Positions 32,900 through 63,716 of a stretch of 64,000 nt of DNA are shown one piece after another; the stretch's first letter is position 1; the number at the start of each line of letters is the position of its first letter. The notes below the pieces were generated by a model. That model made no database searches, had not been told where the DNA came from, and worked only from the letters and a program-made list of their open reading frames with translations. The translations under genes were made by a program, and so were the position numbers. The DNA comes from Eledone cirrhosa (Eukaryota), in the NCBI GenBank assembly GCA_964016885.1, contig OZ024742.1, positions 68,758,001 through 68,822,000 of the forward strand. Direction: 5' to 3'.

Positions 32900-34080
32900 A
32901 ATCACTGATGGTGGCTCATGGGTGGATGTTATTTATCTTGACTTTGCTAAAGCTATTAATTCTGTGCAACACAAAAGAATTATGGCAAAACTCTCTGCAA
33001 TGGGTGTGAGAGATGATCTTTATAACTGGTCGAAGTCCTTTATTTTCACAGTTCTAAAACAGCATTCTTCACACTAAGAGATGACATCTGGTGTACCATA
33101 GGGATCTGTTCTCGTTCCCTTTTGTTTGTTGCATATATTAATGTCTGATGCCAGCTTAAAGAATGCCACAGTGCTGAAATACACAGATGACATCAAGCTG
33201 TATCTTGAGATAAAAAGGACAGATCCTGTACGCTATGGATCTTTCCTGTAACCAGACCTGGACATAATACAACTCAAGCTGGCTGTAGACAAGTGTACCC
33301 CCATGCATTTTGGGAGGAAAAACCCAGCATTCATATACTCCCTTCACAAAACCAATCTCAAGAAGTCTTCTTCTGAAAGTGACCTGGGCATTATTGTCAA
33401 CAGCGATTTGTGTTGGACAAAACAAATCTCTAAAATTGTTAAGAAGGCCGAGTGTGTCTTACCATCTCTCAGCAAGACCTTTGTCAGCTGCTCTCCAGCT
33501 ATCTATTTAAAGCTGTATATAGCTATGGTACGTCCACACTTGAATTTGCATCACCAGTCTGAAACCCCTATCTTGCTCAGAATACTGACCTCCATCAGGC
33601 ATCTACCATACTCTTAACTCCTTGCTTCTCTGGGCATGGATACATTAAAGCTCCAACATCTGGCAACTGACTTGGTAGACACCCACAACCATCTTTCCAA
33701 TAACAACCCTGAACACCTTTGTGATTTCCATGTGTCTAACACCTAAGGACATGCTTACAAAATCAGAAAATAGTACAGCACCCATGACTTTCAGAAACAT
33801 TTTTTCATGTCCAGAGTTGCTGAAGCATGGAACAAACTACCTGCATCAGTTGTTAGCTGTCAGGACACTGCATCCTTCAAAACTTCCATGCTTCCCGAAA
33901 TTCGCCAACACTACACCTGATATTTCCCTCCGTACACATGCATGCATGTGTATGCGTGTCTGTGTATATATCATGACTTGTATACTGTTCACTTTCCTAA
34001 TATTGGTACATTACTCTATGTACTATACATGCACCTTTGATGAGTTGTAGTGCACCTGAGTACTGTACACAATAATTTTG
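32900..34080 (+). mobile_element. Decayed CR1-clade LINE 3' portion
   Basis: DVIYLDFAK, SGVP.GSVL, YTDDIKLY, MHFGRKN, SDLGIIV, LYIAMVRPHL and RVAEAWNKLPASVV. Confidence 0.85.
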
Positions 34081-34088
34081 ATTATTAT

Positions 34089-35843
34089 AGTGCAGTTTGG
34101 GTTTGTGTCAGGTAAAAGTACCACAGATGCTTTTTTCCTTGTACGGCAACTACAAGAGAAGTACCTAGCTAAAAGTAAACACCTCTACTTAGCTTTTGTA
34201 GACCTGGAGAAAGCCTTTGACAGAGTCCCCCACTCCATTATCTGGTGGGCTCTTAGAAAACTAGGTGTAGATGAATGGCTTGTGAGAGCTATACAAGCTA
34301 TGTATAATGAAACAGTCAGTAAGGTTAGAATTAACAATGAATATTGTGAAGAATTTAGTGTAAAAGTTGGCATTTATCAAGGGTCAGTCCTTAGCCCCCT
34401 CCTATTTATTATTGCCCTTCAGGCTATATCAGAGGAGTTCAAGACCGGCTGCCCATGGGAACTCCTATACGCAGATGATCTAATGCTCATAGCTGAATCA
34501 ATGGCTGAACTAGAGAAGAAATTCCAAACATGGAAACATGGCCTAGAATCAAAAGGCCTTAAAGTTAACTTGTCTAAGACTAAAGTTCTAGATTGTAGAA
34601 AGGAAAATAGGGTACAGGTGCCTCAGGGAAATGGCCATGCTCAGTGTGTAGGAAAGGAGTAGGCAGAAATTCCATTTTATGTCCCAAATGCAAAGTATGG
34701 GTACATAAAAGAAGTAGTGGCATCACAGGTAAATTATCTAAGAACGTAGACTTTATATGTGGCCAATGCTCAGGTGCAATAAGTAGCAAGTGTCCACAGG
34801 ATACTAGCTCCTTCTATTACCCAGATGATTCTATAGAAATAGTAGACACTTTCTGTTACCTGGGTGACAAAATCAGCCGTGGTGGAGGGTGTTCTGAAAG
34901 TACGGTAGCCAGAGTCAGAACGGGATGGAAAAAGTTCAGAGAGCTTATACTGCTGTTGGCCACAAAAGGTTTCTCTCTAAAAATGAAAGGCAGATTGTAT
35001 AATGCCTGTATACGAACAGCAATGCTACATGGCAGTGAGACATGGGCATTACGTACAGAGGACCTGCGCAGACTGGAAAGGAACGAAGCATGCATGCTCC
35101 GTTGGATGTGTAATAGTAATATACGTGAACGGCAAAGCATAAATGAACTAAGTGAGAAATTAGGAATAAGAGGGATCAGATGCTGTTTACTTCAGAGAAG
35201 ACTACATTGGTATGGTCACGTGATGCGCATGAAAGACGACAGCTGCATAAAAAAGTGCAGAGTGATCAAAATTGATGGTAGTTACGGAGTAGGTAGACCC
35301 ATAAAAACCTGGGACGATCTGATAAATTCTGACCTTACACACTTGCACCTCTCTAAGACAATGTCACTGGACCGAGATCTTTGGCGCTACGCAGTAATAC
35401 AGAAGACCCGCCTTGCCTATGTACAAAGCGAAACCTACAGTCAGTAGGCACCTCCTAACCAAATATACACCCCAATCCACTACCCCTACCCTATCCTCCC
35501 ACCAACACCACTGCCTCTCTGTAAAGTTGCTACCACAACATCCAGTCCAAATAAATGAGATTGAGATTGTGTAGTGTCACGACAGAAAAAAAATAGGAAA
35601 AAAACAAAAAAACTCAGTCACGCTGTAATGTGGCCGTGTAGGTAACATGGTTAAAAGTTCTCAGTTCCACACTGTAAATGTGGTTGGTGTTAGGAAGGGC
35701 ATCCAGCCGTAGAAAGCCTGCCAGATAGTCCTATATGAGCGAGACACGGTCACCCGACCAACCTTGCCTCAAGTGGCACAACTCCCGTCTAACCCATGCT
35801 AGCGTGGAAGATGGACGTTAAACGATAATGATGATGATGATAG
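34089..35843 (+). mobile_element. 5'-truncated RTE lineage-A LINE
   Basis: ORF 34078-34662 (RT, YADD) and ORF 34644-35447 joined by one frameshift; ~400-bp 3' UTR; (GAT)n tail. Confidence 0.95.
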
Positions 35844-37051: not shown

Positions 37052-37087
<36 letters not shown>

Positions 37088-37145
37088 TCTGAATTTGGCA
37101 ACATGACCCTCCCAAAGTATAACAATATATATATATATATATATA

Positions 37146-37554
37146 GAAAGGATAAAAAGGATGATTGATTATTCCTTCATTGCATTTATTGATAGGTGAC
37201 GCGCGTTTCGCCACTGATCAGCTCAAGGTTCGATCTATATCGATCCTACCCGACTCAATAATCGGCAGCTCGACGGACCCTCTTAAAATGCTATAAGAAA
37301 ATGAAATACATGCTATGTGGTAAAGTCAGAGATTCAAGAGTTTGACAAAATGAGTTGTTTTGATTGGTGGGAAGGATCAAGGCGATGTACTGGCCTGTAG
37401 TGGATATGGGGGTGGGTGTGATGGTGAGATGGTGACGGTCGGTGGATGAGATGGGCTGTGGTGTGGTGGTGGTGGTGAGTTGGCCTTGGCGTGTGAACCT
37501 AAACATCGAGTGCTCTCCCGGGTGAACCTGCAGTAACTCCTAGTTACACCCCCT

Positions 37555-37556
<2 letters not shown>
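37146..37556 (-). mobile_element. Short TA-flanked PLE-type terminal module with degenerate hammerhead (37195-37279)
   Basis: Minus strand reads ggt-CCGTCGA-...-ggc-GAAAC-gcgc-GTC-acc, then tatc and AATAAA; (TA)n on both sides. Confidence 0.5.
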
Positions 37557-37590
<34 letters not shown>

Positions 37591-37593
<3 letters not shown>

Positions 37594-37830
37594 GTAAGTC
37601 CATAGAATCATTAGATAAAATATATACAGTATTTCTTCTCCCAATCAGCATACTCAACCATAATCAATCAATTAAACGAGGCTATAAATTTAAAATATAC
37701 ATATGAAGAGATAAATAAATGATAGCTTTTTATCTGCAATTCACAGCCACAGAAAATTTACCAAGTATTTCTGATAGCCTGAGAAGAAATTATATATATT
37801 TTATCTAATGATTCTATGGACTTACTTTCT
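37591..37830. mobile_element. MITE-like element with ~35-60 bp TIRs within (TA)n
   Basis: aaagtaagtccatagaatcattagataaaatatata is inverted at ~37794-37828. Confidence 0.75.
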
Positions 37831-38284
37831 TATATATTGCTCTGATTGTTGATTATTTAATTAATTAATTCGTCATTGAGCCACACCGTGAATGGTTGCC
37901 AAAAACATATATATATATATATATATATCTATGGCTCTGTCTAGTTTATGCATATAAACTTCTAAATTTTATATATATATATATATATAATGACGTATTA
38001 TATTCGTTTTTTCCAGTTCTTTGCCAGGGAATGTTTCCACGAACCAAAGTATCGTCTTCTTGTCTTCCTCCAGTTGCAACGTTTTTTGAAATATTCACTT
38101 ATGCGTTCACAGATTGACTTTGTTAGATTCAGAAGATCTCGTTAAGGGTGAAAGCAGCGATTCTTTGCTTAAACTTTAATCTGTTATTTTAATAAATATT
38201 TGCTCTACGGTTCTTATATATTTGATATATATTTATCTTTATCAAGCCCTCTTTGGATTTTAGTCTTCAAATTTATTATTATTA

Positions 38285-38323
38285 CTATATCTATCTATCT
38301 ATATATATATATATATATATATC

Positions 38324-38380
<57 letters not shown>

Positions 38381-38403
38381 ATCTCTATCTATCTATCTAT
38401 ATA

Positions 38404-38437
<34 letters not shown>
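38285..38437. repeat. (TATC)n/(TA)n compound microsatellite
   Basis: Directly visible. Confidence 0.95.
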
Positions 38438-38440
<3 letters not shown>

Positions 38441-40416
38441 AAATAAAGATCCGAAGGCATGGTATAAATTTCAAGAGATAGATCGATAAGGTTTCAAGAG
38501 ATAGATCGATCGTGTAGCCATGATCGATTATCACTGATCTCGTCAGGTGAAAATGCATTGTCTACAAATCCTTGATATGAGGGAGAAAATTAACAATGTT
38601 CACTCACAGGGTTTAGTCCCTCATATGAAGATTAGGGTCATAAAACTATCAAGTCTCTATCTCCCAATAGATGTAAAAGACGCTGGACATCAATCAAATC
38701 CGTAGAATTACAGTCGGTCACAGTTAATGTGAGTGGGTATACACACACTCACACACACCGACGCGAGGTCAAAGAAAAAATATATATATACAAACATAGC
38801 ATCAAATCTGTAGAACTATAGACGGTCACAGTTAGTATAAGTGAGTATACACACACTCACACACACCGACGCGAGGTTAAAGAAAAAATATAAATATACC
38901 AACATAGTATTCGCCGAAATGTTATATTGGTCAAATCTCAATTTGCCGATGTGAATTGGAAAATTTGAGTCAACCGCAACCCTATACACACGCAAGTAAG
39001 TTCAGTTCAATGTTCTGCTATACGTGTATAGATTGAATTGTAACATCCATATCTCCAAATAGTGTATGTTATGCTATATACACATCCGTATCGTCCAAAA
39101 AAGTGTATGTTATGGTATATACACATCCATGTGAAGATCAAGTAGTCAGCTCATATCGAACTCAGTATGTGCCGTTGTCCCATTGAGAATCTGAGTCCCC
39201 AAATCTGTGCGTGCAAGCAACCGCTATGTAGGCCACCAAGGGGCTCTGTGTTGGGTTGGGTATTTGGATTAAGGTGTCAGTATGTGCAATTTCCCTTGGG
39301 CTTTTAAGATAGGTGTGAGTCGTGGAGGTGTTATCCAACACAAAAGGTAAAATATAATAACAAAGAATAGCAAAACCCAGAGGATGTGTGTAGGCCCATT
39401 AATGGTGTGTAAGTATTATTGTCCAATCTGTAACCGTGAGCACTCCATGGTTAGATGATCACGGATCAAAACCTCGTGTAGTGTTCAATCGATAGGAACG
39501 TGACCAGTAATAACTGTGGGAACTCAGTGTCTAAAGAAACCGGGTACTGTGTGTAGAGTTATGTATAGAGAGCATAATCGGTCTTAACTGAGTGTGTAAT
39601 ACGTCTAGCTATATCATAACCGAGAGAACTCAATTGTTAGCGTATCCTAAAGTAATGGTGAATGCGCGTAATCGGTCTTACCCGAGTGTGTAATTATTCT
39701 AACTATTTACTATAGCTTAGCTATACTAGTGGTCAGGCCAGTGGAGTAAGGGAGGTTATACCACAGGATTTTTCTGGTCCGATGCCTCTTGTTCTTACTA
39801 TCTATACAAGAGTTACCTGTCTCCTTAGTAGCTACTGGTCTATTATAACTGAAAACTGCCTGTGGGTTGATGGTGTCCTGGGGTGTCCCGATTGTGTTCG
39901 GAATTGTCCCGCCTCCGGGGCGGTGTACCCCCTGTGCAGCTATTGGGATTACCCTCGATAGCTGGGGTTATATCCACTATGCGCCTGCTACATTTATCCC
40001 TATTCCCTCTACCTGACCCTCGTTCCATTTTATGTTCAATGGTTGTTTTATCAGTTCTACAATTAAGGTTACAATTAGAGTTTCCGTTGGTATTACGGTG
40101 CTCAGACCCTGTGTTTGTACCTGGGTGATTGTTTCCATTGGTGCCATCAACATTGGGACTAGGAGGCAATACACCATGAAGTCTATATTGATCCTCCCTA
40201 GCATCCCGCCTGCTGTTAACTAAAGTGTCACTATTTTGGCCTAAGCTATCGCAGGCAATGTTGCTACTACTATTTAATGGACGTTTGAAGGAGATTCCCT
40301 CGCTATGCCGCGGATAGAGTAACCTATGACGACTTGATAATCAGAGAACTTAGAAAAGCTACAAAAAAACTACACGGGCCAACCTGGATTTAATCAACAC
40401 GGAGGCCAATAGCGTC

Positions 40417-41370
40417 ATGACTAAACTGGGTATTGAAGATAAAACTGAACCCTTCCATCCTAGAATTCCGACGATTTTATTGAAAGACCATAAATTAAAC
40501 TTTGAATCATCAAGACCTGTCAGGCTGATAGCCCCTTCGAAGTTGGACATAGGAATCGTGAGTAAAAACATCCTTGATAAAATAATCCCCACTCTAGTTA
40601 GGAGATCGAAGCTTAAATTATGGTCAGGAACTAGTGAGGTAATTAACTGGTTTGAGAAATCGCAGAATAAGAATAGCACTAAGGTTATACAGTTCGATAT
40701 CTCGAACTACTACTCTTTGATCTCTCCAACTCTTCTAGGTAAGGCCCTAAACTTTGCTAGCTTACACACCAACCTTACATCTGAAGAAATTAACATTATT
40801 CTCCTAGCTAGGAAAACCTTAATTGAGTTCAACGGTGACTTGTGGACCAGGAAAGATTGGCTGGACAATTTCGACATCACCATGGGATCCACGGACTCGG
40901 CCCAGGTGACGGGTCTGGTGGGCCTTTACTTCCTCAACTGTCTCGGAGTGGAAATGCCCCACTTGGGAGGTGGCGCTTACCGTGACGATGTTTTGTTTAC
41001 TGTGTTGTTCCATAATAATAGTATGGTAGAGAGGGTGAGGAAAAAACTAAGCAAATTCTTCAACAACATAGACCTAAGTATAGTGTTTGAAGAAAACCTG
41101 AAGATAGTTAATTTTCTAGATGTTACACTTAACCTCAATTCAAGACTCTTCCCACCCTACCACAAACCCAACGAAAATTTAAATTATGTCAATGAAAAAT
41201 CGAACCACCCTAGAATAGTCACTAACGGTATTACCAAAAGCGACTCTAGTAGAATTTCAGGACTATCTTCCAATGAAGATACCTTTGATAGGATCTCGAA
41301 TTACTATAATAGCGCACTGGAACGCGCGGGGCATAGCGAGGGAAGGAAATCTCATTCAAACGTCCATTAA
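40417..41370 (+). CDS. Penelope-like reverse transcriptase (5'-truncated, probably non-functional)
   Basis: 317-aa ORF with KDHK..F....VRLI, FDISNYY, MGS.DSA, YRDD, VNFLDVTLNL and YHKPN...YV...SNHP. Confidence 0.9.
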   Translation: MTKLGIEDKTEPFHPRIPTILLKDHKLNFESSRPVRLIAPSKLDIGIVSKNILDKIIPTLVRRSKLKLWSGTSEVINWFEKSQNKNSTKVIQFDISNYYSLISPTLLGKALNFASLHTNLTSEEINIILLARKTLIEFNGDLWTRKDWLDNFDITMGSTDSAQVTGLVGLYFLNCLGVEMPHLGGGAYRDDVLFTVLFHNNSMVERVRKKLSKFFNNIDLSIVFEENLKIVNFLDVTLNLNSRLFPPYHKPNENLNYVNEKSNHPRIVTNGITKSDSSRISGLSSNEDTFDRISNYYNSALERAGHSEGRKSHSNVH

Positions 41371-41859
41371 ATAGTAGTAGCAACATTGCTTGCGATAGCT
41401 TAGGCCAAAATAGTGACACTTTAGTTAACAGCAGGCGCAATGCGAGGGAGGATCAATATAGACTTCATGTTGTATTGCCTCCTAGTCCCAATGTCGATGG
41501 TACCAATGGAAACAATCACCCAGGTACAAACACGGAGTCTGAGCACCGTAATGCCAGCGGAAACTCTAATTGTAACCTTAATTGTAGGACTGATAAAACA
41601 ACCGTTGAACGTAAAATGGAACGAGGGTCGGGTAGAGGGAATAGGATAAATGTAGCAGGCGCATAGTGGATATAACCCCAGCTATCGAGGGTAATCCCAA
41701 TAGCTGCACGGGGGGGGGGTACACCGCCCCAGAGAGAGGGGACGATACCGAACACAATCGGGACACCCCAGGACACCATCGACCCACAGGCAGTTTTCAG
41801 ATATAATAGACCAGTAGCTACTAAGGAGACAGGTAACTCTAGTATAGATAGTAAGAACG

Positions 41860-42620
41860 AGAGGCATCGGACCAGAAAAATCCTGTGGTATAAGCCCCCT
41901 TACTCCACTGGCCTGACCACTAGTATAGCTAAGGTTTTCTTTAGGGCCTTAGACAAATGCTTCCCTAGATCACACAGATACTATAAAATATTCAATAGGA
42001 ATACCATTAAGCTGTCCTACCCCACAACCAGTAACATAGCTCAGAATATAGCTAAGATGAATTATAGTAGACTTAGGACAGCCCAAGGCGGGATGAGACA
42101 TGGCAGAACTAATGGCAGCTCTATAGATGAACGGACTCATACACGTGAGGCGAGTCGGGTCACCCCAACTCCTGCGAACTTACCCATAGAGCAGACAAGA
42201 ACTGAGACCCGACCCCAGAGGTACCGTTGTTCCTCTGGAACTACATAGGTCGATAACAGAAAATGTAATTGCAGGAACACCGCCACGTGCTCCATGGCTG
42301 GGAAATGCCTCACCAAAAACATAGTCTACGACTGTAAGGTCTCCACTTTAGATAGAATCTTCAGGTATGTTGGGGCAACTGCCACTGAATTTAAGGATAG
42401 ATGGTATAATCACCACCATACCTTTAATAGATTAGATTAAAAAATAGCATGGCGCTTTCTGAATTAGTCTGGAAGCTTAAACAACAGAATATAGAGCACT
42501 CTTTATCCTGGTCCATAATTTGCTCAGCCATATAACGGCAGCACTAGCGTCTGTAATTTATGTATAGCTAAAACATTTAATATTATTAGAGGCAGCCCCC
42601 TATTAATCAATAGGAGATCT
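41860..42620 (+). pseudogene. PLE linker and GIY-YIG endonuclease (Nematis-like CNCR..C..GKC type), disrupted
   Basis: RKILWYKPPYS...KIFNRNTIKLSY, then KCNCRNTATCSMAGKCLTKNIVYDCKV..RYVGATATEFKDRWYNHHHTF at ~42261-42425, then W.LK and CNLC. The clade assignment is from memory. Confidence 0.85.
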
Positions 42621-43869
42621 TTTCAGATTTTTTCAGCAACTGCCAACATAGAACCTCAAAAACTTCCGCAGGATTTTTGGAAAGTAACTTACCACTAACT
42701 CCTCCCTCTCTACCTTAGCCATAGAGTTCTCTCAATTAGCAAAAAACAGACAATCACACACTCAGGTAGTTAGACAGCTAAGATCGTTTGCGCACTTACA
42801 AACGGTACTCGGCCTGTTTCCACAAAGTTGTCACAGCTGAGTGCACATTAGAATACCTAGTTAGTAAATAGTTAGAATGATTACACACTCAGGTAAGACC
42901 GATTACGCGCATTCACCATTACTTTAGGATACGCTAACCATTGAGTTCTCTCGGTTATGATATAGCTAGACGTATTACACACTCAGTTAAGACTGATTAT
43001 GCTCTCTATACATAACTCTACACACAGTACCCGGTTTCTTTAGACACTGAGTTCCCACAGTTATTACTGGTCACGTTCCTATCGATTGAACACTACACTA
43101 GGTTTTGATCCGTGATCATCTAACCATGGAGTGCTCACGGTTACTGATTGGACAATATTATTTACACACCATTAATGGGCCTACACACATCCTCTGGGTT
43201 TTGCTATTCTTTGTTATTATATTTTACCTTTTGTGTTGGATAGCACACCCCCACCACTCAAACACCTATCTTAAAAGCCCAAGGGCCCATATGACGGGAA
43301 ATCGCACATACTGACACCTTAACCCAAATACCCAACCCAACACAGAGCCCCTTGGTGGCCTACATAGTGGTTGCTTGCACACACAGATTTGGGGACTCAG
43401 ATTCTCAATGGGACAACGGCACATGCTGAGTTCGATATGAGCTGACTACTTGCTCTTCACATGGATGTGTATATACCATAACATACACTATTTGGAGATA
43501 CGGATGTTACAATTCAATCTATACACGTTTAGCAGAACATTGAACTGAACTTACTTGCGTGTGTATAGGGTTGCGGTTGACCCAATTTTTCCAACTCTTT
43601 TGGATAGCAGAACATTGAACTGAACTTACTGATCAGTGATAATCGATCATGACTATACGATTGATCTATCTCTTATTGAAACATGTGTCGTGATTAAAAT
43701 GATTGGAAATGTATACCATTCCTTCGGATCTTTATTTTGATATAAATACTCCGTTTTACATCATCTAGCTGTTCCCATAAATGGAATTGGAGATATACAA
43801 AAGTGTGGAGAACTTAATATTGCTAACAAATTTATTGGACCTTTTGGCACAACTAATAATACACTTTAC

Positions 43870-44097
43870 TAAATAACATAGTCCACGCTGTAATGTGGCC
43901 GTGTAGGCAACACGGTAAAAACCTCCCAGCCCCACACTGTAAATGTGGTTGGTGTTAGGAAGGGCATCCAACTGTAGAAAACCCGCCAGACAGTCCTATG
44001 CGAGCAAGACAACCACTCTTGCCTCAAGTGGGAAAACTCCCGTCCAAACCCATGCAAGCGTGGAACATGGACGTTAAACGATGATGATGATGATGAT
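43870..44097 (+). mobile_element. RTE lineage-A 3' UTR fragment
   Basis: Matches 35620-35843; (GAT)n tail. Confidence 0.85.
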
Positions 44098-44115
44098 ATA
44101 TATATATATATATAA

Positions 44116-44487
44116 AGGCACATGGCTTAGTGGTTAGAGCATTGGGTTTGCAATCGTCAATTCTCAGACCGAGTGATGTGTTGTTTCCTTGAGCAAGACA
44201 CTTTATTTCACATTGCTTCAATTTACTCAGCTGTAGAAATGAGATGATAGGACTGGGGTCCCTATCATTCTACTGTAAAGTGGACGTGTAGGCACCACAG
44301 AAAAAAAGCACCCAGCACTCACTGTAAATGAGGTTGGTGTTAGGAAGGGCATCCAACTGTAGAAATCAAGCCAGAATCATTTCCCGTATGAGCAAGACAA
44401 GGTCAGCCGACCGGACACTGCCCACAACAGGACAACCCGTCTAACCTATGCTAGTGTGGAAGAACGGACGTAAAACAGTAATGATGA
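44116..44487 (+). mobile_element. tRNA-derived SINE with RTE lineage-A tail
   Basis: Same head, core and hairpin as 5657-6046, but ends ccgtctaacctatgctagtgtggaagaacggacgtaaaac..gatgat. Confidence 0.82.
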
Positions 44488-44553
44488 TATATATATATAT
44501 ATGTATATCACAGAAAAAAAGAGAATCAGTGTTGCGACGAATGGAATTTATTG

Positions 44554-44649
44554 GACATATTACAATCGTTTCTCTGGCGACCAGCTCGAGGCATGATCGA
44601 TTTGATGATCGAACCTGACTCTGAAAATCGCACGGTCCTCAGATACATC
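44554..44649 (-). ncRNA. Type I hammerhead ribozyme motif with extended stem II
   Basis: Minus strand: stem I gatgtat/atatgtc (7 bp with G-U pairs), CTGAGGA, long stem II, GAAAC-gatt-GTA, and AATAAA just downstream. The base of stem II is mismatched. Confidence 0.65.
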
Positions 44650-44683
44650 TTGATTCTACAAAACAGATTTTCCTATATATATA

Positions 44684-45530
44684 CAGGGTGCGGACGATAT
44701 TTGTTCGCAATTTTCAACTGTTAATTTTATGCAAATTTTTTTTACTTCTGTTGTCACTCTTGTTTTCATAAAAACAGTGACTATATTTCCATTATTTATT
44801 TTCAGAATAATTGATTATGAATAATTTTGAACCTCCAAATTTGAATCCGCGCCGGGAGGACAAATAAGACCAGAAGATCAACTCCCAGAACAACAGGTAG
44901 CTCGCCGTCTCATCCAAAGACGTGCCCAGAGTCATGCAGACAAAGTTTCCAGCGACAGCATTGGTCTTAGGTGTTGTCAGCAGTCAAGGTGACGTCATAC
45001 CACCTCACTTCTTCCCTGAGGGCCTCAAGCTGAACACCGATGGCTACATCCGCGTTCTGAGCGAGGTAGTAAAGCCCTGGATCGACCAGGTAGCTGCAGG
45101 TAAGCCGTACGTGTGGCAGCAAGACTCAGCGCCCTGCCATACCAGCCGAAAGACCCAAGCCTGGCTGTCAGAGAACTTCGTCGACCACACTTCACCTGAC
45201 ATCTGGCCTCCCAGCTTGCCTGACTGCAACCCCCTCGACTTCTTTGTGTGGGGCGCAGTGGAACGAGACACCAACAGATCTAGCTGCAATACGAAAGACG
45301 ATCTGAAGGCCAGGATCACAAGTCGGGGACAGTGACGAAGGCCTGTAGCCGGTTCCGAGGCCACCTTGAGGCCGTCATCAAAGCCAATGGCAGGTTTATC
45401 GAGTGAGATCGAAAGAACACATCATGAAGACTAACTGACCCAAATTTGATAAATAAATCTTTAAAAATATAACTACTGTGTTATTTTTTCCTAGATAGTA
45501 ATCTTGCAAACAAATATCGTCCGCACCCTG
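44684..45530 (+). mobile_element. Internally deleted maT (DD37D) Tc1/mariner transposon
   Basis: TIRs cagggtgcggacgatatttgtt.gcaa at 44684 and inverted ending at 45530; TA context. ORF 44922-45335 has QQD-x37-D (WPPSLPDCNPLD). Confidence 0.92.
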
Positions 45531-45542
45531 TGTATATATATA

Positions 45543-45745
45543 TTTCCTTGTTTGTTTACTGTCTCGCTCGCTTTACGCGATTTACTTGTCCCAATAGCTT
45601 TATTTAGCTATTGCTCGCACCAATCAGAGGTATATGATTTTTAAAGCGATGAAATACCAATGAAGGTTGGAAAATCACTGACGAAGGACTATTTTTATCA
45701 TATGTAACCCATGTGCAACCATGCAGTATTCTTTCTTCATGTTTT
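45543..45745 (+). mobile_element. Short TA-flanked repeat with a CTGAYGA half-hammerhead
   Basis: A second copy at ~52670-52750 plus 53041-53160 is split by an RTE tail insertion. Confidence 0.65.
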
Positions 45746-45838
45746 TTATATATATATATATATATAAAGAAAAAGAGATGAAATCGAAAATGCAACTGGA
45801 GTCTTATTTTTTTTTAAAATATATATATTTATTTGGTT

Positions 45839-45876
45839 CCTTTACCGGTTTCGCAGTTCTTCTGCTTTTCAAAAGG
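45839..45876 (-). ncRNA. Minimal type I hammerhead motif with two core substitutions
   Basis: Minus strand: cctt-TTGAAAA(for CTGANGA)-gcag-aagaa-ctgc-GAAAC-CG-GTA-aagg, then AATAAA. Confidence 0.6.
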
Positions 45877-46511
45877 TGAGTTGAGATGGAGGGTCTAATA
45901 TTTGAAGTTCTAGTCAAACTTTAATTAGTTACCTACCTAGCTATGTGTGCCTACATTCTTTACAAATTATTCCCTGTGATTGTTTCATGTATTTATTTTA
46001 TATATATATATATATATATATATGTTAATCTATTTCTAGTTGATATATATATATATATATATATTAGTAATGAAGAAGTTTATTTAAATATTACATCATT
46101 TTATTGCTTACTTTTTTACTGTTATATATATGTCGATGTTATCTATAATGTAATAGATTCAACCTCATCAGGCACCTATTGTGTAATCATTTATTCAATG
46201 TGTGATATGTCCCAGGCATGTTCTGATGTAACTCGTCTATTATCTTGCTAACATGGATTCAGTATAAGATATACAACTAACATCACTAGTTTAGGTTTAT
46301 TCCTTCTATCAGATTGGTTGATTCTCAATCCTAATCATTCAGTTTTTGGTTGAATGTTAATTTGACCTAAAGTCAGAATTAGTTCAAGGACTGGTCAGAA
46401 ATGTTTTTGAAGAATATGTTTTCACTGCAAGGGGTTGTTTTTCTCCACATTTCATTGAGTTTGTGGGATTAATGCCATTGTGCAACAAATTTAAGTTTCA
46501 AGTTCTTATTA

Positions 46512-47552: not shown

Positions 47553-48049
47553 AAGTTCTTATTAGGAAGGTAGTAGTATCAGTAGCAGTAATAGTGGCAG
47601 CAGTATTATAAGAAGTAGTATCGGTAGTAGTAGTAATCCCAATTATTTCAATGTCAATTTATTCACTACCACAAATCCACTCATAATTAGAAATTAAAAA
47701 AATTAGATGAAGTGAAAAATGATTAAGGATATAGCTATGAAAATAGGATATCACTGTTTTATGAACATTGCCAGTTGTGCCATTGTTAGCATATTGTCTA
47801 TAGTAACTTAGGTTAAGTAGGTGTTATTATCTACAATAGTTAGTGTAGATTCTAGTGTAGCTAGAGGTATATATTTAAGTCTATCATGATGTGCTATACT
47901 ATCATTTCTATACTTGTGGTTAGTGCGTGTATGTGAGATGGTAAACCCTTGTGGTTCTGTTTATCACTTATTATGGCTTTTGTGCGGTAAGACACTCAGG
48001 GATATTCCTAATTTATAATACTTATGGAGGGTGAGGGTTATCAGTTACT

Positions 48050-48850
48050 GAAGCTACCTAGAATTATCTTGCATATCACTTGAGGAAAGTTCCCAATGTT
48101 AGGTGTAGATAAGCACCAAAGAAGTCTGCCCCTCTGTTAATTAGTTGTGGTCTATGTTTAAGGATTTCACTTATAGATTACATATAGAGAACTGACCACA
48201 GTCAGAGGGCATCTCATGTACCTTAGACCATTTAAGTGAATACTGCATTCCATTTACTTTGAGCTTCCATATTAGCTCAAAGTGGGCTGTGCATTTGCAC
48301 TTCTACTCCTTTTTAAAGGTGTGGCAGTGGTTATACCAATGGTCCTTAAATGTGGTCGATGTCATCCAACATATGTGTATGTCAAGCTGTTGGTGGTAAC
48401 CCAACATTGGTATACCATATTCTTACAAAGGCATTCATCATCCAGTGGGCATGCATTGGGGTTCCTGCAGTTACACTGCCTGTTCATCCAAGGTGGGTTG
48501 GTCTCTGTTGGGTCTGTATAGCTTGGCCCAATTCCTCAGTTTACTTTTCACAGCATCACTAGTGTGTATAGCTCTATTGGATATAGTCTGGTTCATGTTA
48601 ATAATGTCTAGTTTGTGTCTATGGTTCCTTCACCTAGCATTATTAATTCTAGCTATGTATTGGGCTAAGTTGCAGGTCTATATGAGGGCTTAATTGTGTG
48701 TCTATTAAATATAATGTAGTACCTAAGTGTCCTACGGAAACATCTGTCAAACACTTTGAAGAAAGCTTACAACATTGGTCCGGAATCCTGCTGAATATCG
48801 TGGATTATTTTTTTGTATTAATTTCTTTTGTTGGTGGGCCTATGTAATGC
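48050..48850 (-). pseudogene. Older Penelope-like relic (linker + GIY-YIG)
   Basis: Minus strand CNCRNPNACPLDDECLCKNMVYQCWV..TYVG..TTFKDHWYNH and RYYIIFNRHTIKPSY are homologous to 41860-42425. Confidence 0.8.
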
Positions 48851-60290: not shown

Positions 60291-61042
60291 ATGTATAAAT
60301 GGCCATTTCTGCCTGTTTGTTTGTGAACCTAAAACTCAAAAACTACCAAACTGATCTTGATGAAACTTGACACGTGTGTGGGGCTCATGCCCATTTGATT
60401 TCTTACGTATATTTCATTTTAATCAAAGGGTTCCCCGGGGGTTCAAACCCCCGAGTAATTTTTCCCAAGATATGATGCCTATTCACAAAATTTCCGCAAA
60501 TTTCAATCATATTAAGACACCCTAATGGGTGAAAATTTATAGTGAAAATTTTGGCCAATAAATGGAACAAGATTTCACAAACTCCCCCTATGGTTTTGGA
60601 GATAGACCCCCATAACCATATATATTCTGAAACTACATTGCCCAGGATACTTGGATAAGTATATTTCATTTTAATCAAAGGGTTCCCCGGGGGCACAAAA
60701 CCCACGCTGAAAATTTTTTCCCTTCGATTTATATGAAATTTAAACCATAGTTAAATGATGCCTATTCACAAAATTTCAGCAAATTTCAATAATATTAAGA
60801 CACCCTAATAAGTGTTCTATTTTTTCCTTATAGCAGCACTCAACTTCTCTGACAAACATTTTTTCGCCTGACCAATGCAATCAACAATATTTGTTTGTAT
60901 TATTGTTTCATGAATGAATTTGTCTTCACTTTTGATTATCTGTCCTATATTTTTATTTCATTTTTGGTCTGAGAGGCATTGGGCATTTTAATGGGCACAG
61001 GGAATACCCCCGCTCCCGGGTATTACCAGGTACCTCAGCTAG
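60291..61042 (+). mobile_element. Non-autonomous Helitron/Helentron-like element
   Basis: 3' GC-rich hairpin-like ccgggtattaccagg followed by CTAG|T. The 5' part ctgtttgtttgt..aactcaaaaact..gatcttgatgaaacttg resembles DINE/HINE heads. Internal direct repeat at 60407 and 60659. Confidence 0.6.
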
Positions 61043-61130
61043 TATATATATATATATACACACACATGTATATACACATGTACATATATATATATACATG
61101 TATATATATATATACATGTATATATATATA

Positions 61131-63716
61131 TACGAGCAACTTTTACAAACAACCGCAATGACAGAGGACAGAGACATCGTTATGCTAGCAGGGGACTTCA
61201 ATAGTCATGTTGGACAGCTCCAGGATGGTTACACTGGGGTACATGGTGGGCACGGTTACGGCTCAAGAAATGAAGAAGGAGTGAGACTTCTTGAATTTTG
61301 TGATGCAAGAACACTAACCATTTGTAACACTAACTTCCAGAAAACTGCCAACCACCTAATAACCTACAAATCAGGTGAGCACATAAGCCAGATTGACTTC
61401 CTGCTAGTTAGGCAGTGGGACAGGCAGATGGTGTCAAATACCAAGGCATACCCTGGGGAAGAATGTACCCCACAGCATAGGTTAGTCATTAGTGATATCT
61501 CATTAAGCAAGAGACGGAATGAAACACACAGGAAGGTGTGGAGAAGAAAGGTCTGGAAGCTAAAAACCCTTTCACTAAAATACAAATTTAGGAAAGCCCT
61601 TCAAGACGTGTGTGACGAAGAAGAAGACAATATAGAGTCGTATGACATAGATGATAACTGGAATTTCTTACGTGACAACTTACTTCAGGTTAGTGATGAA
61701 AATTGTGGCTGGAGCAGAGCTCCAACCAGACAGAGAGTGACCAGGTGGTTGAACAGCATGGTAGATATGGCCATTAGAGACAAAGGACTAGCATGGAAGG
61801 CTTGGAAAAAGGGTGCCAGTAGAGAAGGATATACAGCTGCTAAGAGAGAAGCTAGACATCAGGTGTACTTAGCATGCAGGGAGGCTGAGAGTATGAGGTT
61901 TGCCAATGTTCTGCGACGGGAAGATCAGAGACATGCGGTGTTTCACATTGCAAGGCAGTGTGTCAATGCAAATCAGGATGTTGTTGGAGATAAATATGTC
62001 CAGAATGATGCCGGTGTACTTAGTGTCACGAATGATCAGAAAAAGGAGGCCTGGAAATGTCATTATGAGAGACTGATGAATGTGGAGAAGGAATGGGAGA
62101 GAGAGAAATTACACTCAGTAGATCCGACAGAGGGACCAGCTATTGAGATTGACGAATATAGGGTCCAAGAGGCGATTAAGGAAATGAAAAATGGGAAGGC
62201 TGCTGGACTATTGGGGATAGTTGCTGAGATGCTGAAGGCATCAGGGGACGTAGGCACTAAACTGGTTGCACGCATCATCAATCAGGCTATATATGGTGGT
62301 GTCATACCCAAAGACTGGTGCAGCAGTATTCTCATAAATTGCTACAAAGGTAAAGGAGATGCTATGGAGAGGAGCAATTATAGGGGTATAAAACTGATGG
62401 ATCAGGTTATGGAAGTGGCAGAAAGGATATTAGCACAACTAATTAGAGAAAGCGTCAAACTAGATGAGATGCAGTTTGGTTTTGTGCCTGGGAAGAGTAC
62501 AGCAGATGCCCTCTTCTTGGTGAGACAATTACAAGAGAGGTTCTTAGAGAAAAATAAGCCACTATACTTAGCCTTTGTTGACCTAGAGAAGGCCTTTGAT
62601 AGGGTACCCCGATCTGTCATCTGGTGGTCCCTAAGGAAACTAGGTATTGAGGAATGGCTTGTGAGGACAGTGCAAACTTTGTACAGAGGTGCTGTCAGTA
62701 AAGTCAGGGTAGGAATGGAGTTTAGTGAGGAATTCCAGATACAAGTAGGAGTACATCAAGGTTCAGTCCTCAGCCCGCTCTTGTTTATTATAGTCCTCCA
62801 AGCCATAACAGAGGAGTTTAAGACTGGCTGTCCATGGGAACTTCTCTATGCTGACGATCTGGTTCTTATAGCAGAATGAGTAGATGAGCTAGAGAATAAA
62901 TTCTGGCTATGGAAACAGCAGTTGGAAGCAAGAGGACTGAGAGTGAACCTAGCTAAGACAAAAGTGTTGAGTAGAAAAGAGGACAAAACTCTGATTCCAT
63001 CAGGGAAATGGCCATGTTCGATATGCAGAAAAGGAACTGACATAAATTCTATAAAATGCACACAATGCAGATCCTGGGTACACAAGAGATGTAGCAGGAT
63101 AGCAGGAAAACTAACAGGTAGGGAGAAATCCGTATGCAGTAGATGTACAGGGAAATTAGACAGTAGAAGTCGCATTGATAGACACATTTTTCAAATGCAG
63201 GCGGATGCTATATAAGTGGTGGATAGCTTCTGGTACTTAGGAGATCAGATTAGCATGGGAGGGGGGGGTGTTCCGAGGCCATAGTATCTAGAATAAGGAT
63301 GGGTTGGAAGAAGTTTAGGGAGCTGCTTCCTCTGCTGACGAAGAAGGGTTTCTCCCTGCGTACAAAAGGCTGGTTATATGATGCCTGTGTGAGGAGTGCG
63401 ATGCTGCATGGTAGTGAGACATGAGCAGCAACTGCAGAGGATATGCGACGGCTGGAGAGAAATGAGGCAAGCATGCTCCGTTGGATGTGCAGTGTCAATG
63501 TACGTGAACAACCCAGCATGGATGTGTTGAGAGAGAAACTGTGTCTGAGAAGTATAGAATGTAGTGTGCGAGAGAGGAGACTGAGGTGGTATGGTCATCG
63601 CTGAAGATGACGAAGGACTGTGACAAGTGGAGAGATGCTGTGCTAAATAAGACCCGTCCCAACCTTGCAAGCAGGGAAGAGTGGACGTAAAATGATGATG
63701 ATGATGATGATGATGA

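What the first reader, a model, noticed from the sequence alone, without database searches (positions are those of the whole stretch)
37146..46200. Cluster of hammerhead + poly(A)-signal micro-modules embedded in (TA)n tracts
Seen: at least four sequence-divergent modules of 150-400 bp share the grammar stem I - CTGANGA - stem II - GAAAC - tiny palindromic stem III - GTH - stem I' - A(A/T)TAAA. They are at 37195-37279(-), 44554-44649(-), 45839-45876(-) and the PLE ends (38491-38550 / 43631-43700); weaker ones are at 38125-38175(+) and 46125-46175(-). Known: Penelope-like pLTRs and animal retrozymes carry minimal type I hammerheads that cleave as dimers. Inference: a diverse population of non-coding, ribozyme-bearing, microsatellite-targeted retroelements mobilised by PLE RT/GIY-YIG, which ORF-based annotation would miss.
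Basis: partly seen in the sequence, partly recalled or inferred. Interest (0 to 1): 0.75.

Follow-up and report, generated by a model that had tools for sequence, protein, structure and literature searches.

The report
Penelope retrotransposon ends with variant hammerheads
The short modules in these TA repeats are leftover ends of six protein-coding Penelope-like jumping-gene families, not separate parasites; each family carries a hammerhead motif predicted to be a self-cutting RNA, and in one lineage a 60-base side arm is kept while core letters have changed several times, so the arm likely has a job other than cutting.

Summary
All six modules are real, high-copy and end in (TA)n. Five are Hydra-type (two only partly tested); one is an intact two-ORF Neptune-like element. 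5' ends are scattered, and short copies do not form a short-only lineage. The stated grammar is only partly right. In the window one copy has a strict CTGANGA core (44561-44642), one the known U3-A8 core, two have family-fixed variant cores (U4C+A6U; U4A), and three are broken. Two modules are not minimal: they belong to a lineage with a ~60-nt helix II (4,679 pattern matches, 0 in control) that covaries and keeps an AG/G loop. Published Hydra motifs have 12-26 nt there. A further 2,684 matches carry U4C, fixed in at least three separate amplified subfamilies. Cleavage and expression are untested. The scan noted long-armed Hydra hammerheads and the Neptune frameshift before, on other DNA. Verdict: new variant of a known kind.

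The parts
37147..37494 (-). M1: 5'-truncated 3' end of a Hydra-type PLE; hammerhead motif 37194-37280 with core CCGTCGA (U4C+A6U) and 60-nt helix II
37495..37556 (+). Inverted 'tail' of the M1 family (sequence that follows the terminal repeat in longer copies), ending in (TA)n
37990..38288 (+). M5: 3' end of a Hydra-like PLE; hammerhead-like motif 38130-38170 with core CAGAAGA (U4A) and a U-U pair at the helix II base
38430..40300 (-). Inverted left arm of the decayed M3 element; half hammerhead 38491-38546 (core and 48-nt family helix II, no stem III)
40354..41370 (+). RT fragment of the M3 element (YRDD at 40978), Hydra-type
42249..42640 (+). CxCx5C linker (42264) and broken GIY-YIG domain of the M3 element
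43631..43870 (+). Right terminal repeat of M3 (lacks CTGACGA; keeps GAAAC-loop-GTC at 43678-43689) plus tail; right boundary approximate
44490..44674 (-). M2: short stub of a Hydra-type PLE end; hammerhead 44554-44649 with strict core and 63-nt helix II; 5' end at the ATAG hot spot
44684..45530 (+). Tc1/mariner-like DNA transposon remnant in the TA flank of M2 (unrelated neighbour)
   Evidence: DDE_3 hit below curated cut-off; terminal inverted repeats
45763..45896 (-). M4: short stub of a young two-ORF Neptune-like PLE end; compact hammerhead 45839-45876 with U3-A8 core
46077..46482 (-). M6: old PLE 3' end with decayed hammerhead 46119-46175; the same element continues at 47570-48415

Best explanation
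The modules are truncated or inverted terminal-repeat ends of six (TA)n-targeting, protein-coding Penelope-like families, each family carrying a type I hammerhead motif that is predicted, not shown, to cut RNA. Shown: links to RT/GIY-YIG sequence, TA at 3' ends, two or three fixed 3' end points per family, scattered 5' ends with hot spots, and covarying stems. Inferred mechanism: the element's endonuclease nicks (TA)n; RT starts at UA-rich sites just behind the hammerhead (end of the repeat or end of the tail); the cDNA usually stops early and joins the target through ATA microhomology, or a second priming gives an inverted arm. This leaves 70-400-bp stubs. Loop III is self-complementary in M1-M4 and M6, so cleavage would likely need a dimer. 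In the M1/M2 lineage a ~60-nt helix II with an AG/G loop is kept while the core acquired U4C in several subfamilies that still amplified; cleavage is therefore likely attenuated or dispensable there, and the arm likely serves as a protein-binding or folding element (about 35% for this last step).
For: ORF links. M1: 3 of 8 long loci show RT/linker/EN about 2.2 kb upstream, and L047 runs from the tail into an ORF with RWK. M2: 2 of 5 long loci (L063 EN 2.7 kb upstream; L073 repeat, tail, then ORF with RWR and DKM). M3: the window itself and L079. M4: repeat-ORF1-ORF2-repeat, with ORF2 of 768-775 aa in 3 of 12 loci (RVT_1 and GIY-YIG). M5: EN upstream in 7 of 30 and RT downstream in 3 of 30; M6: 2 of 30. 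5' ends of M4 spread 0-1026 nt in 30 of 30 position-ordered matches. M2 short versus long: 13 label changes on the tree; the one short-only clade is a sister subfamily in which 9 of 30 copies run further upstream. Long arm: 4,679 matches, 0 control; 120 cells with double-sided change against 52.5 shuffled, 75% paired against 28-35% for slid partners. U4C: 2,684 matches, 0 control; three starred multi-copy C4 clades. Literature: Hydra PLEs insert in (TA)n and carry hammerheads (PMC8557442); most PLE hammerheads are single and probably from truncated PLEs (PMC4209133); internal RT initiation makes the tail and hammerhead mutants still insert in vitro (PMC11167929); U4C and A6 changes lower activity (PMC3088659).
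Against: No cleavage or expression data (no RNA run listed). RNAalifold returned no consensus pair on the same alignment. Single-sequence folds of whole motifs were not more stable than shuffles (z from -1.37 to 0.02) and do not give the hammerhead fold for M1 or M2; insert z was below -1 in only 17 of 39 rows. The structure was drawn from these sequences, and part of the alignment was selected on GAGTC. M2 has a strong 5' hot spot (45 TA-fused against 39 extended exact matches), which a short master copy could also produce. No ORF was shown for the M2 sister subfamily (only 1.5-kb flanks seen). M5's reading as a hammerhead needs two deviations. CpG decay of CCG to CTG blurs the count of U4C origins.
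Confidence: 0.85

Rival explanations
1. Independent non-autonomous retrozyme-like families, mobilised in trans by PLE enzymes.
For: Short stubs far outnumber ORF-bearing copies. M2 has a sharp 5' hot spot (45 against 39) and M4 has one (10 of 30 within 0-2 nt). 14 of 30 short M2 copies formed a clade. Retrozymes derived from PLE repeats are published (PMC7229834; bioRxiv 10.64898/2026.07.22.740005).
Against: All six modules link to RT and/or EN sequence. The short clade has long members and the same hot spot recurs in both subfamilies. No tandem hammerhead monomers were seen in the flanks I printed (some searches were partly cut); I ran no dedicated tandem search.
Confidence: 0.1
2. As the best explanation, but the long helix II is only a tolerated spacer and the variant cores are weak alleles that hitch-hiked in masters for which the ribozyme no longer matters.
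For: Hammerhead mutants still insert in vitro (PMC11167929). Helix II length varies freely among the six families (13, 13, 30, 48, 60 and 63 nt). Naiads spread without canonical hammerheads (PMC8557442). Fold signals are weak.
Against: Insert length stays at 59-62 nt in 36 of 40 loci and GAGTC is kept within one mismatch in 38 of 40 loci from a pattern that did not ask for it, while the flanking pairs covary.
Confidence: 0.4
3. Chance motifs in AT-rich repeats.
For: No Rfam hit; a one-mismatch descriptor gives scattered chance hits.
Against: Thousands of matches with 0 in reversed controls, covariation, and the same position in six unrelated terminal repeats. Only M5 is open to doubt.
Confidence: 0.02

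Closest known systems
Hydra clade of Penelope-like elements (Craig et al. 2021, PMC8557442; passages, section 11, supplementary Files S1 and S2, passages of S4 read), including Hydra-1_Obim
   Same: YRDD-type RT, RWK motif, CxCx5C linker, C-terminal GIY-YIG, (TA)n insertion, hammerhead near the 3' end, inverted 5' arms.
   Different: The Hydra motifs in File S2 have 12-26 nt between CUGANGA and GAAA and all have CUGANGA; here 30-63 nt and fixed U4C, U4C+A6U or U4A cores. 3' UTRs here reach 2.2-2.7 kb. Spike-moss PLE-X motifs in the same file have about 50 nt, so a long helix II has precedent outside Hydra.
PLE minimal hammerheads and the U3-A8 variant of Schistosoma Cercyon (Cervera and de la Pena 2014, PMC4209133; parts 1-2 of 4 read)
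   Same: Type I motifs in terminal repeats, palindromic loop III, mostly single copies from truncated elements; U3-A8 core as in M4.
   Different: Helix II there is 6-8 bp; no long conserved arm in the parts read.
Neptune/Nematis-type EN+ PLEs (PMC8557442)
   Same: [quoted passage not shown]
   Different: M4 has a separate 400-aa ORF1 overlapping ORF2 in the -1 frame with an in-frame T TTT TTA heptamer. The Fig. 1 legend says ORF1 can be separated by a frameshift, but I could not see for which clade.
Animal non-LTR retrozymes (PMC7229834, passages; Li, Clavereau and Pollet 2026, bioRxiv 10.64898/2026.07.22.740005, parts 1-3 of 5, supplements not seen)
   Same: Short, non-coding, type I hammerhead, related to PLE terminal repeats.
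   Different: Retrozymes are defined as tandem repeats with a hammerhead in each unit. These modules are dispersed stubs with variable 5' ends that belong to coding elements.

Membership tests
Hydra-clade PLE | RWK motif near the N-terminus | tested here: met
   RWK in M1 (L047) and M3 (L079), RWR in M2 (L073); not found in the M5 stretch scanned; no such stretch for M6
Hydra-clade PLE | DKG changed to DKT | tested here: inconclusive
   M2 reads DKM; not recovered in the other stretches scanned
Hydra-clade PLE | CxCx5C linker before a C-terminal GIY-YIG | tested here: met
   M1 (L061), M2 (L063), M3 (window 42264); M5 and M6 showed the GIY segment but the linker pattern was not found
Hydra-clade PLE | No CCHH motif in the endonuclease | tested here: inconclusive
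   A simple pattern for the first CxxC was absent from M1-M3, M5 and M6 and present in M4; no alignment-based test
Hydra-clade PLE | Insertion in (TA)n | tested here: met
   19-29 of 30 against 5-11 of 30 in controls
Hydra-clade PLE | RT falls in the Hydra clade on a tree | not tested
   Only by-eye comparison with published Hydra proteins
Neptune-type PLE (M4) | Cx2-5CxxC linker, CCHH-type C-terminal GIY-YIG | tested here: met
   Linker and first CxxC found in L258; RVT_1 and GIY-YIG hits. Neptune versus Nematis not tested by tree
Non-LTR retrozyme | Tandem units each with a hammerhead | tested here: not met
   None in the region or in printed flanks; no genome-wide tandem search
Non-LTR retrozyme | Family lacks coding capacity | tested here: not met
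   RT and/or EN linked for all six
Non-LTR retrozyme | Circular RNA monomers | not testable with these tools
   No RNA holder listed
Type I hammerhead ribozyme | Conserved core CUGANGA...GAAA...NUH | tested here: inconclusive
   Met for M2 (27 of 30), M3 (20 of 30), M6 (15 of 30); U3-A8 variant for M4 (30 of 30); not met for M1 and M5 (0 of 30 each)
Type I hammerhead ribozyme | Three helices with covariation | tested here: met
   M1/M2 lineage: stems I and II covary, stem III invariant by selection; RNAalifold found no consensus; M3-M6 not tested for covariation
Type I hammerhead ribozyme | Self-cleavage | not testable with these tools
   Needs an in vitro assay

The most novel reading that the evidence does not exclude
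In this Hydra lineage the hammerhead has been turned into a non-catalytic RNA signal: the ~60-nt helix II arm with its AG/G loop is a docking site for the element's RT-endonuclease and stays under selection, while the catalytic core was weakened independently several times (U4C in at least three subfamilies, U4C+A6U in M1) in master copies that went on to leave thousands of insertions.
Probability: 0.3. Interest if true: 0.65.

Novelty: new variant of a known kind. Interest (0 to 1): 0.37.

Why it matters
What hammerheads do in Penelope-like elements is open (PMC8557442 says the function is unclear; PMC11167929 found cleavage dispensable in vitro). Sister subfamilies here differ in the core but share the arm, which gives natural matched pairs to separate cutting from binding. 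In practice, short TA-flanked hammerhead modules in such genomes should be traced to their parent PLE before being called retrozymes, and long-armed motifs escape Rfam and exceed the published Hydra range.

Tried and rejected
Rfam: no hammerhead match among 105 rows at E<=10. Pfam did not recognise the window's broken RT or EN. Reading M1 from the inner CTGATCA as the core was rejected: it has no stem I, and 988 relatives place CTGANGA at the column where M1 has CCGTCGA. M4 as a fixed-start mini-element was rejected: that impression came from top BLAST hits, and a position-ordered sample extends up to 1,026 nt upstream. An apparent upstream extension in L123 was unique and its nearby EN hit belongs to another element. 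A short-only M2 lineage was rejected. A K-turn in the arm was considered by eye and dropped because the GA/GA pattern is not kept across subfamilies; a likeness to a bulged-G (loop E) motif is recalled, not tested. RNAalifold gave no pairs. No RNA holder listed, so no reads were laid. ORF1 of M4: no longer fused homologue found, which is weak evidence; six unnamed homologues at 38-50% identity. Literature searches showed no description of a ~60-nt conserved helix II or of recurrent U4C in Hydra PLEs; the library lacks most subscription papers and Repbase, and bioRxiv supplements were not seen. Rows dropped: one search left out L063 (false hit) and three partly deleted or truncated singletons (L280, L283, L287) from 41 clusters and added two window copies; one search thinned 188 hits to 68 and kept one false row (L023p).
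Full report
Setting. The window lies in a 3.0-Gb animal genome. The region holds TA tracts, a decayed Penelope-like element (PLE) at 38430-43870 with long inverted arms, and several short modules.

Observation. All six are dispersed repeats. (TA)4 lies just behind the 3' end in 19-30 of 30 copies against 5-14 of 30 at control positions. The stated grammar holds strictly only for M2. M4 has a U3-A8 core, a variant known from Schistosoma PLEs (PMC4209133). M1 has CCGTCGA and M5 has CAGAAGA, each fixed in its family (25 and 28 of 30; CTGA in 0 of 30). The two M3 ends are each half a motif and the window copy of M6 is decayed. A(A/T)TAAA after the motif is real, but copies run on to (TA)n and not to poly(A). 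Rfam finds none of these motifs.

What the modules belong to. M1: 3 of 8 long loci carry RT, a CxCx5C linker and GIY-YIG about 2.2 kb upstream, and in L047 the tail runs into an ORF with RWK and YRDD. The window copy has the usual PLE layout of a truncated end plus an inverted tail. M2: L063 has the endonuclease 2.7 kb upstream, and in L073 the repeat and tail lead into an ORF with RWR and DKM. M3 is the window's own element; its RT matches published Hydra proteins by eye. M5 has the endonuclease upstream in 7 of 30 and RT downstream in 3 of 30 loci; M6 in 2 of 30. The window's M6 copy itself continues at 47570-48415, over the stretch that holds the endonuclease hit in L172. M4 is the terminal repeat of a young element: repeat, ORF1 of 400 aa, ORF2 of 775 aa (RT, Cx4CxxC linker, GIY-YIG), about 1 kb of 3' UTR, repeat.

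Independent families? M4 5' ends in 30 position-ordered matches (some are two arms of one insertion) lie 0-2 nt from the anchor in 10 and 21-1026 nt upstream in 20. M2 has a hot spot where TA is fused to an internal ATAG (45 against 39 extended exact matches). In a tree of 30 short and 30 long copies the label changes 13 times; 16 short copies mix with long ones and 14 form a clade. That clade is a sister subfamily with a U4C core, in which 9 of 30 copies continue upstream, 6 of them for more than about 80 nt (counted by eye). The same hot spot therefore recurs in two subfamilies, as expected for microhomology with the TA target (inference). Retrozymes are defined as tandem units (bioRxiv 10.64898/2026.07.22.740005); none was seen here. 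Re-copying of some stubs in trans is not excluded.

The long arm. A pattern with CTGANGA, 45-75 free bases and M1's stem III found 988 matches and 0 in the reversed control; these align column for column with M1 and fix its core. The insert is 59-62 nt in 36 of 40 loci and keeps GAGTC within one mismatch in 38 of 40, though the pattern did not ask for it (20 loci unselected, 20 hand-picked for divergence). A wider pattern that includes GAGTC gave 4,679 matches and 0 controls, including the M2 family. On 39 diverse rows (63% mean column identity) a rod of 8 bp, loop, 3 bp, AG/G loop, 2 bp, bulge, 4-5 bp and a terminal hairpin had 75% of cells paired and 120 double-sided changes against 52.5 in shuffles (0 of 500); slid partners gave 28-35% paired. 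The number of pairs with a double change was not above shuffles (52 of 500). Single-sequence folds of the M2, L273 and L298 inserts reproduce most of this rod. Against it: RNAalifold gave no consensus, whole-motif folds were not more stable than shuffles, and only 17 of 39 inserts had z below -1; these rows are decayed genomic copies. Published Hydra motifs have 12-26 nt at this place and spike-moss PLE-X motifs about 50 (File S2 of PMC8557442).

Core changes. The same pattern with C at position 4 gave 2,684 matches and 0 controls, 36% of the two counts together. With positions 4 and 6 masked, a 68-row tree needs 10 label changes, 6 forced by well-supported branches. Some are single copies, one is a false row, and CpG decay can turn CCG into CTG. 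Three multi-copy C4 clades are well supported (M1, the M2 sister, and the L436 group) and a fourth group is interleaved with U4 rows. U4C lowers activity in vitro yet suffices for a viroid in vivo, A6C lowers it, and a U-U pair at the helix II base is tolerated (PMC3088659). So M1 is likely a weak or dead ribozyme whose family still spread.

Mechanism. Shown: linkage to ORFs, TA 3' ends, fixed 3' end points (two in M1 and M2, three in M4), variable 5' ends. From the literature: internal RT initiation explains PLE tails, and hammerhead mutants still insert in vitro (PMC11167929); Hydra elements prefer (TA)n. Inferred: nicking of (TA)n, priming at UA-rich sites behind the hammerhead, early termination with ATA microhomology or second-strand priming, dimer cleavage through the self-complementary loop III. 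The role of the arm is open: docking or folding element (about 35%) against tolerated spacer (about 40%).

Novelty. PLE ends with hammerheads in (TA)n are known, including a Hydra family from Octopus bimaculoides in PMC8557442. I did not find the long conserved arm or recurrent U4C in print. Earlier notes of this scan report long-armed Hydra hammerheads and the Neptune frameshift on other DNA; I reached both before reading the notes, while one search already listed a long-stem-II note. They are not independent support. Papers seen: PMC8557442 (passages, section 11, supplement parts 1-2 and S4 passages; figures not visible), PMC4209133 (parts 1-2 of 4), the 2026 bioRxiv preprint (parts 1-3 of 5, no supplements), and passages only of PMC3088659, PMC11167929, PMC7229834, PMC6431247 and PMC13725137.

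Verdict. Observation partly confirmed; the interpretation as independent non-coding families is not supported; new variant of a known kind; interest 0.37.

Noticed in passing
L255, L258, L264 (parent element of window 45763-45896): Young two-ORF Neptune-like PLE. ORF1 (400 aa, no Pfam family; six unnamed homologues) overlaps ORF2 by about 88 nt in the -1 frame with an in-frame T TTT TTA heptamer in 10 of 10 loci checked: candidate programmed -1 frameshift. Only a weak downstream hairpin is predicted.
   Followed up: partly
window 44684-45530: Tc1/mariner-like remnant with terminal inverted repeats, inserted in the TA flank of M2.
   Followed up: partly
window 37591-37828: TA-flanked inverted pair (I10); related sequence in L253 continues into a CTGATGA...GAAAC-palindrome-GTA motif, so this is probably a seventh PLE end whose motif is decayed in the window.
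   Followed up: no
window 37084-37125: 42-bp TA-flanked stub also seen beside other loci (L012, L125); probably the extreme 3' end of another TA-targeting element.
   Followed up: no
window 43888-44090 and 44273-44490: Two copies (83% over 103 nt) of a repeat ending in (GAT)n, with a tRNA-like SINE fragment at about 44116-44240 between them (by eye).
   Followed up: no
L197/L198, L219/L220 and others: Head-to-head M4 insertions joined at the same position; 10 of 30 sampled 5' ends fall within 2 nt, most as inversion junctions. The cause is unexplained.
   Followed up: partly
G000:C2:103283282-103284195: Eight tandem 122-bp repeats of the M1 3' UTR upstream of its hammerhead; the unit does not include the motif.
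   Followed up: no
window 34060-35447 and 60936-62879: Non-LTR retrotransposon ORFs (RVT_1 with PHD finger; RVT_1 with endonuclease).
   Followed up: no
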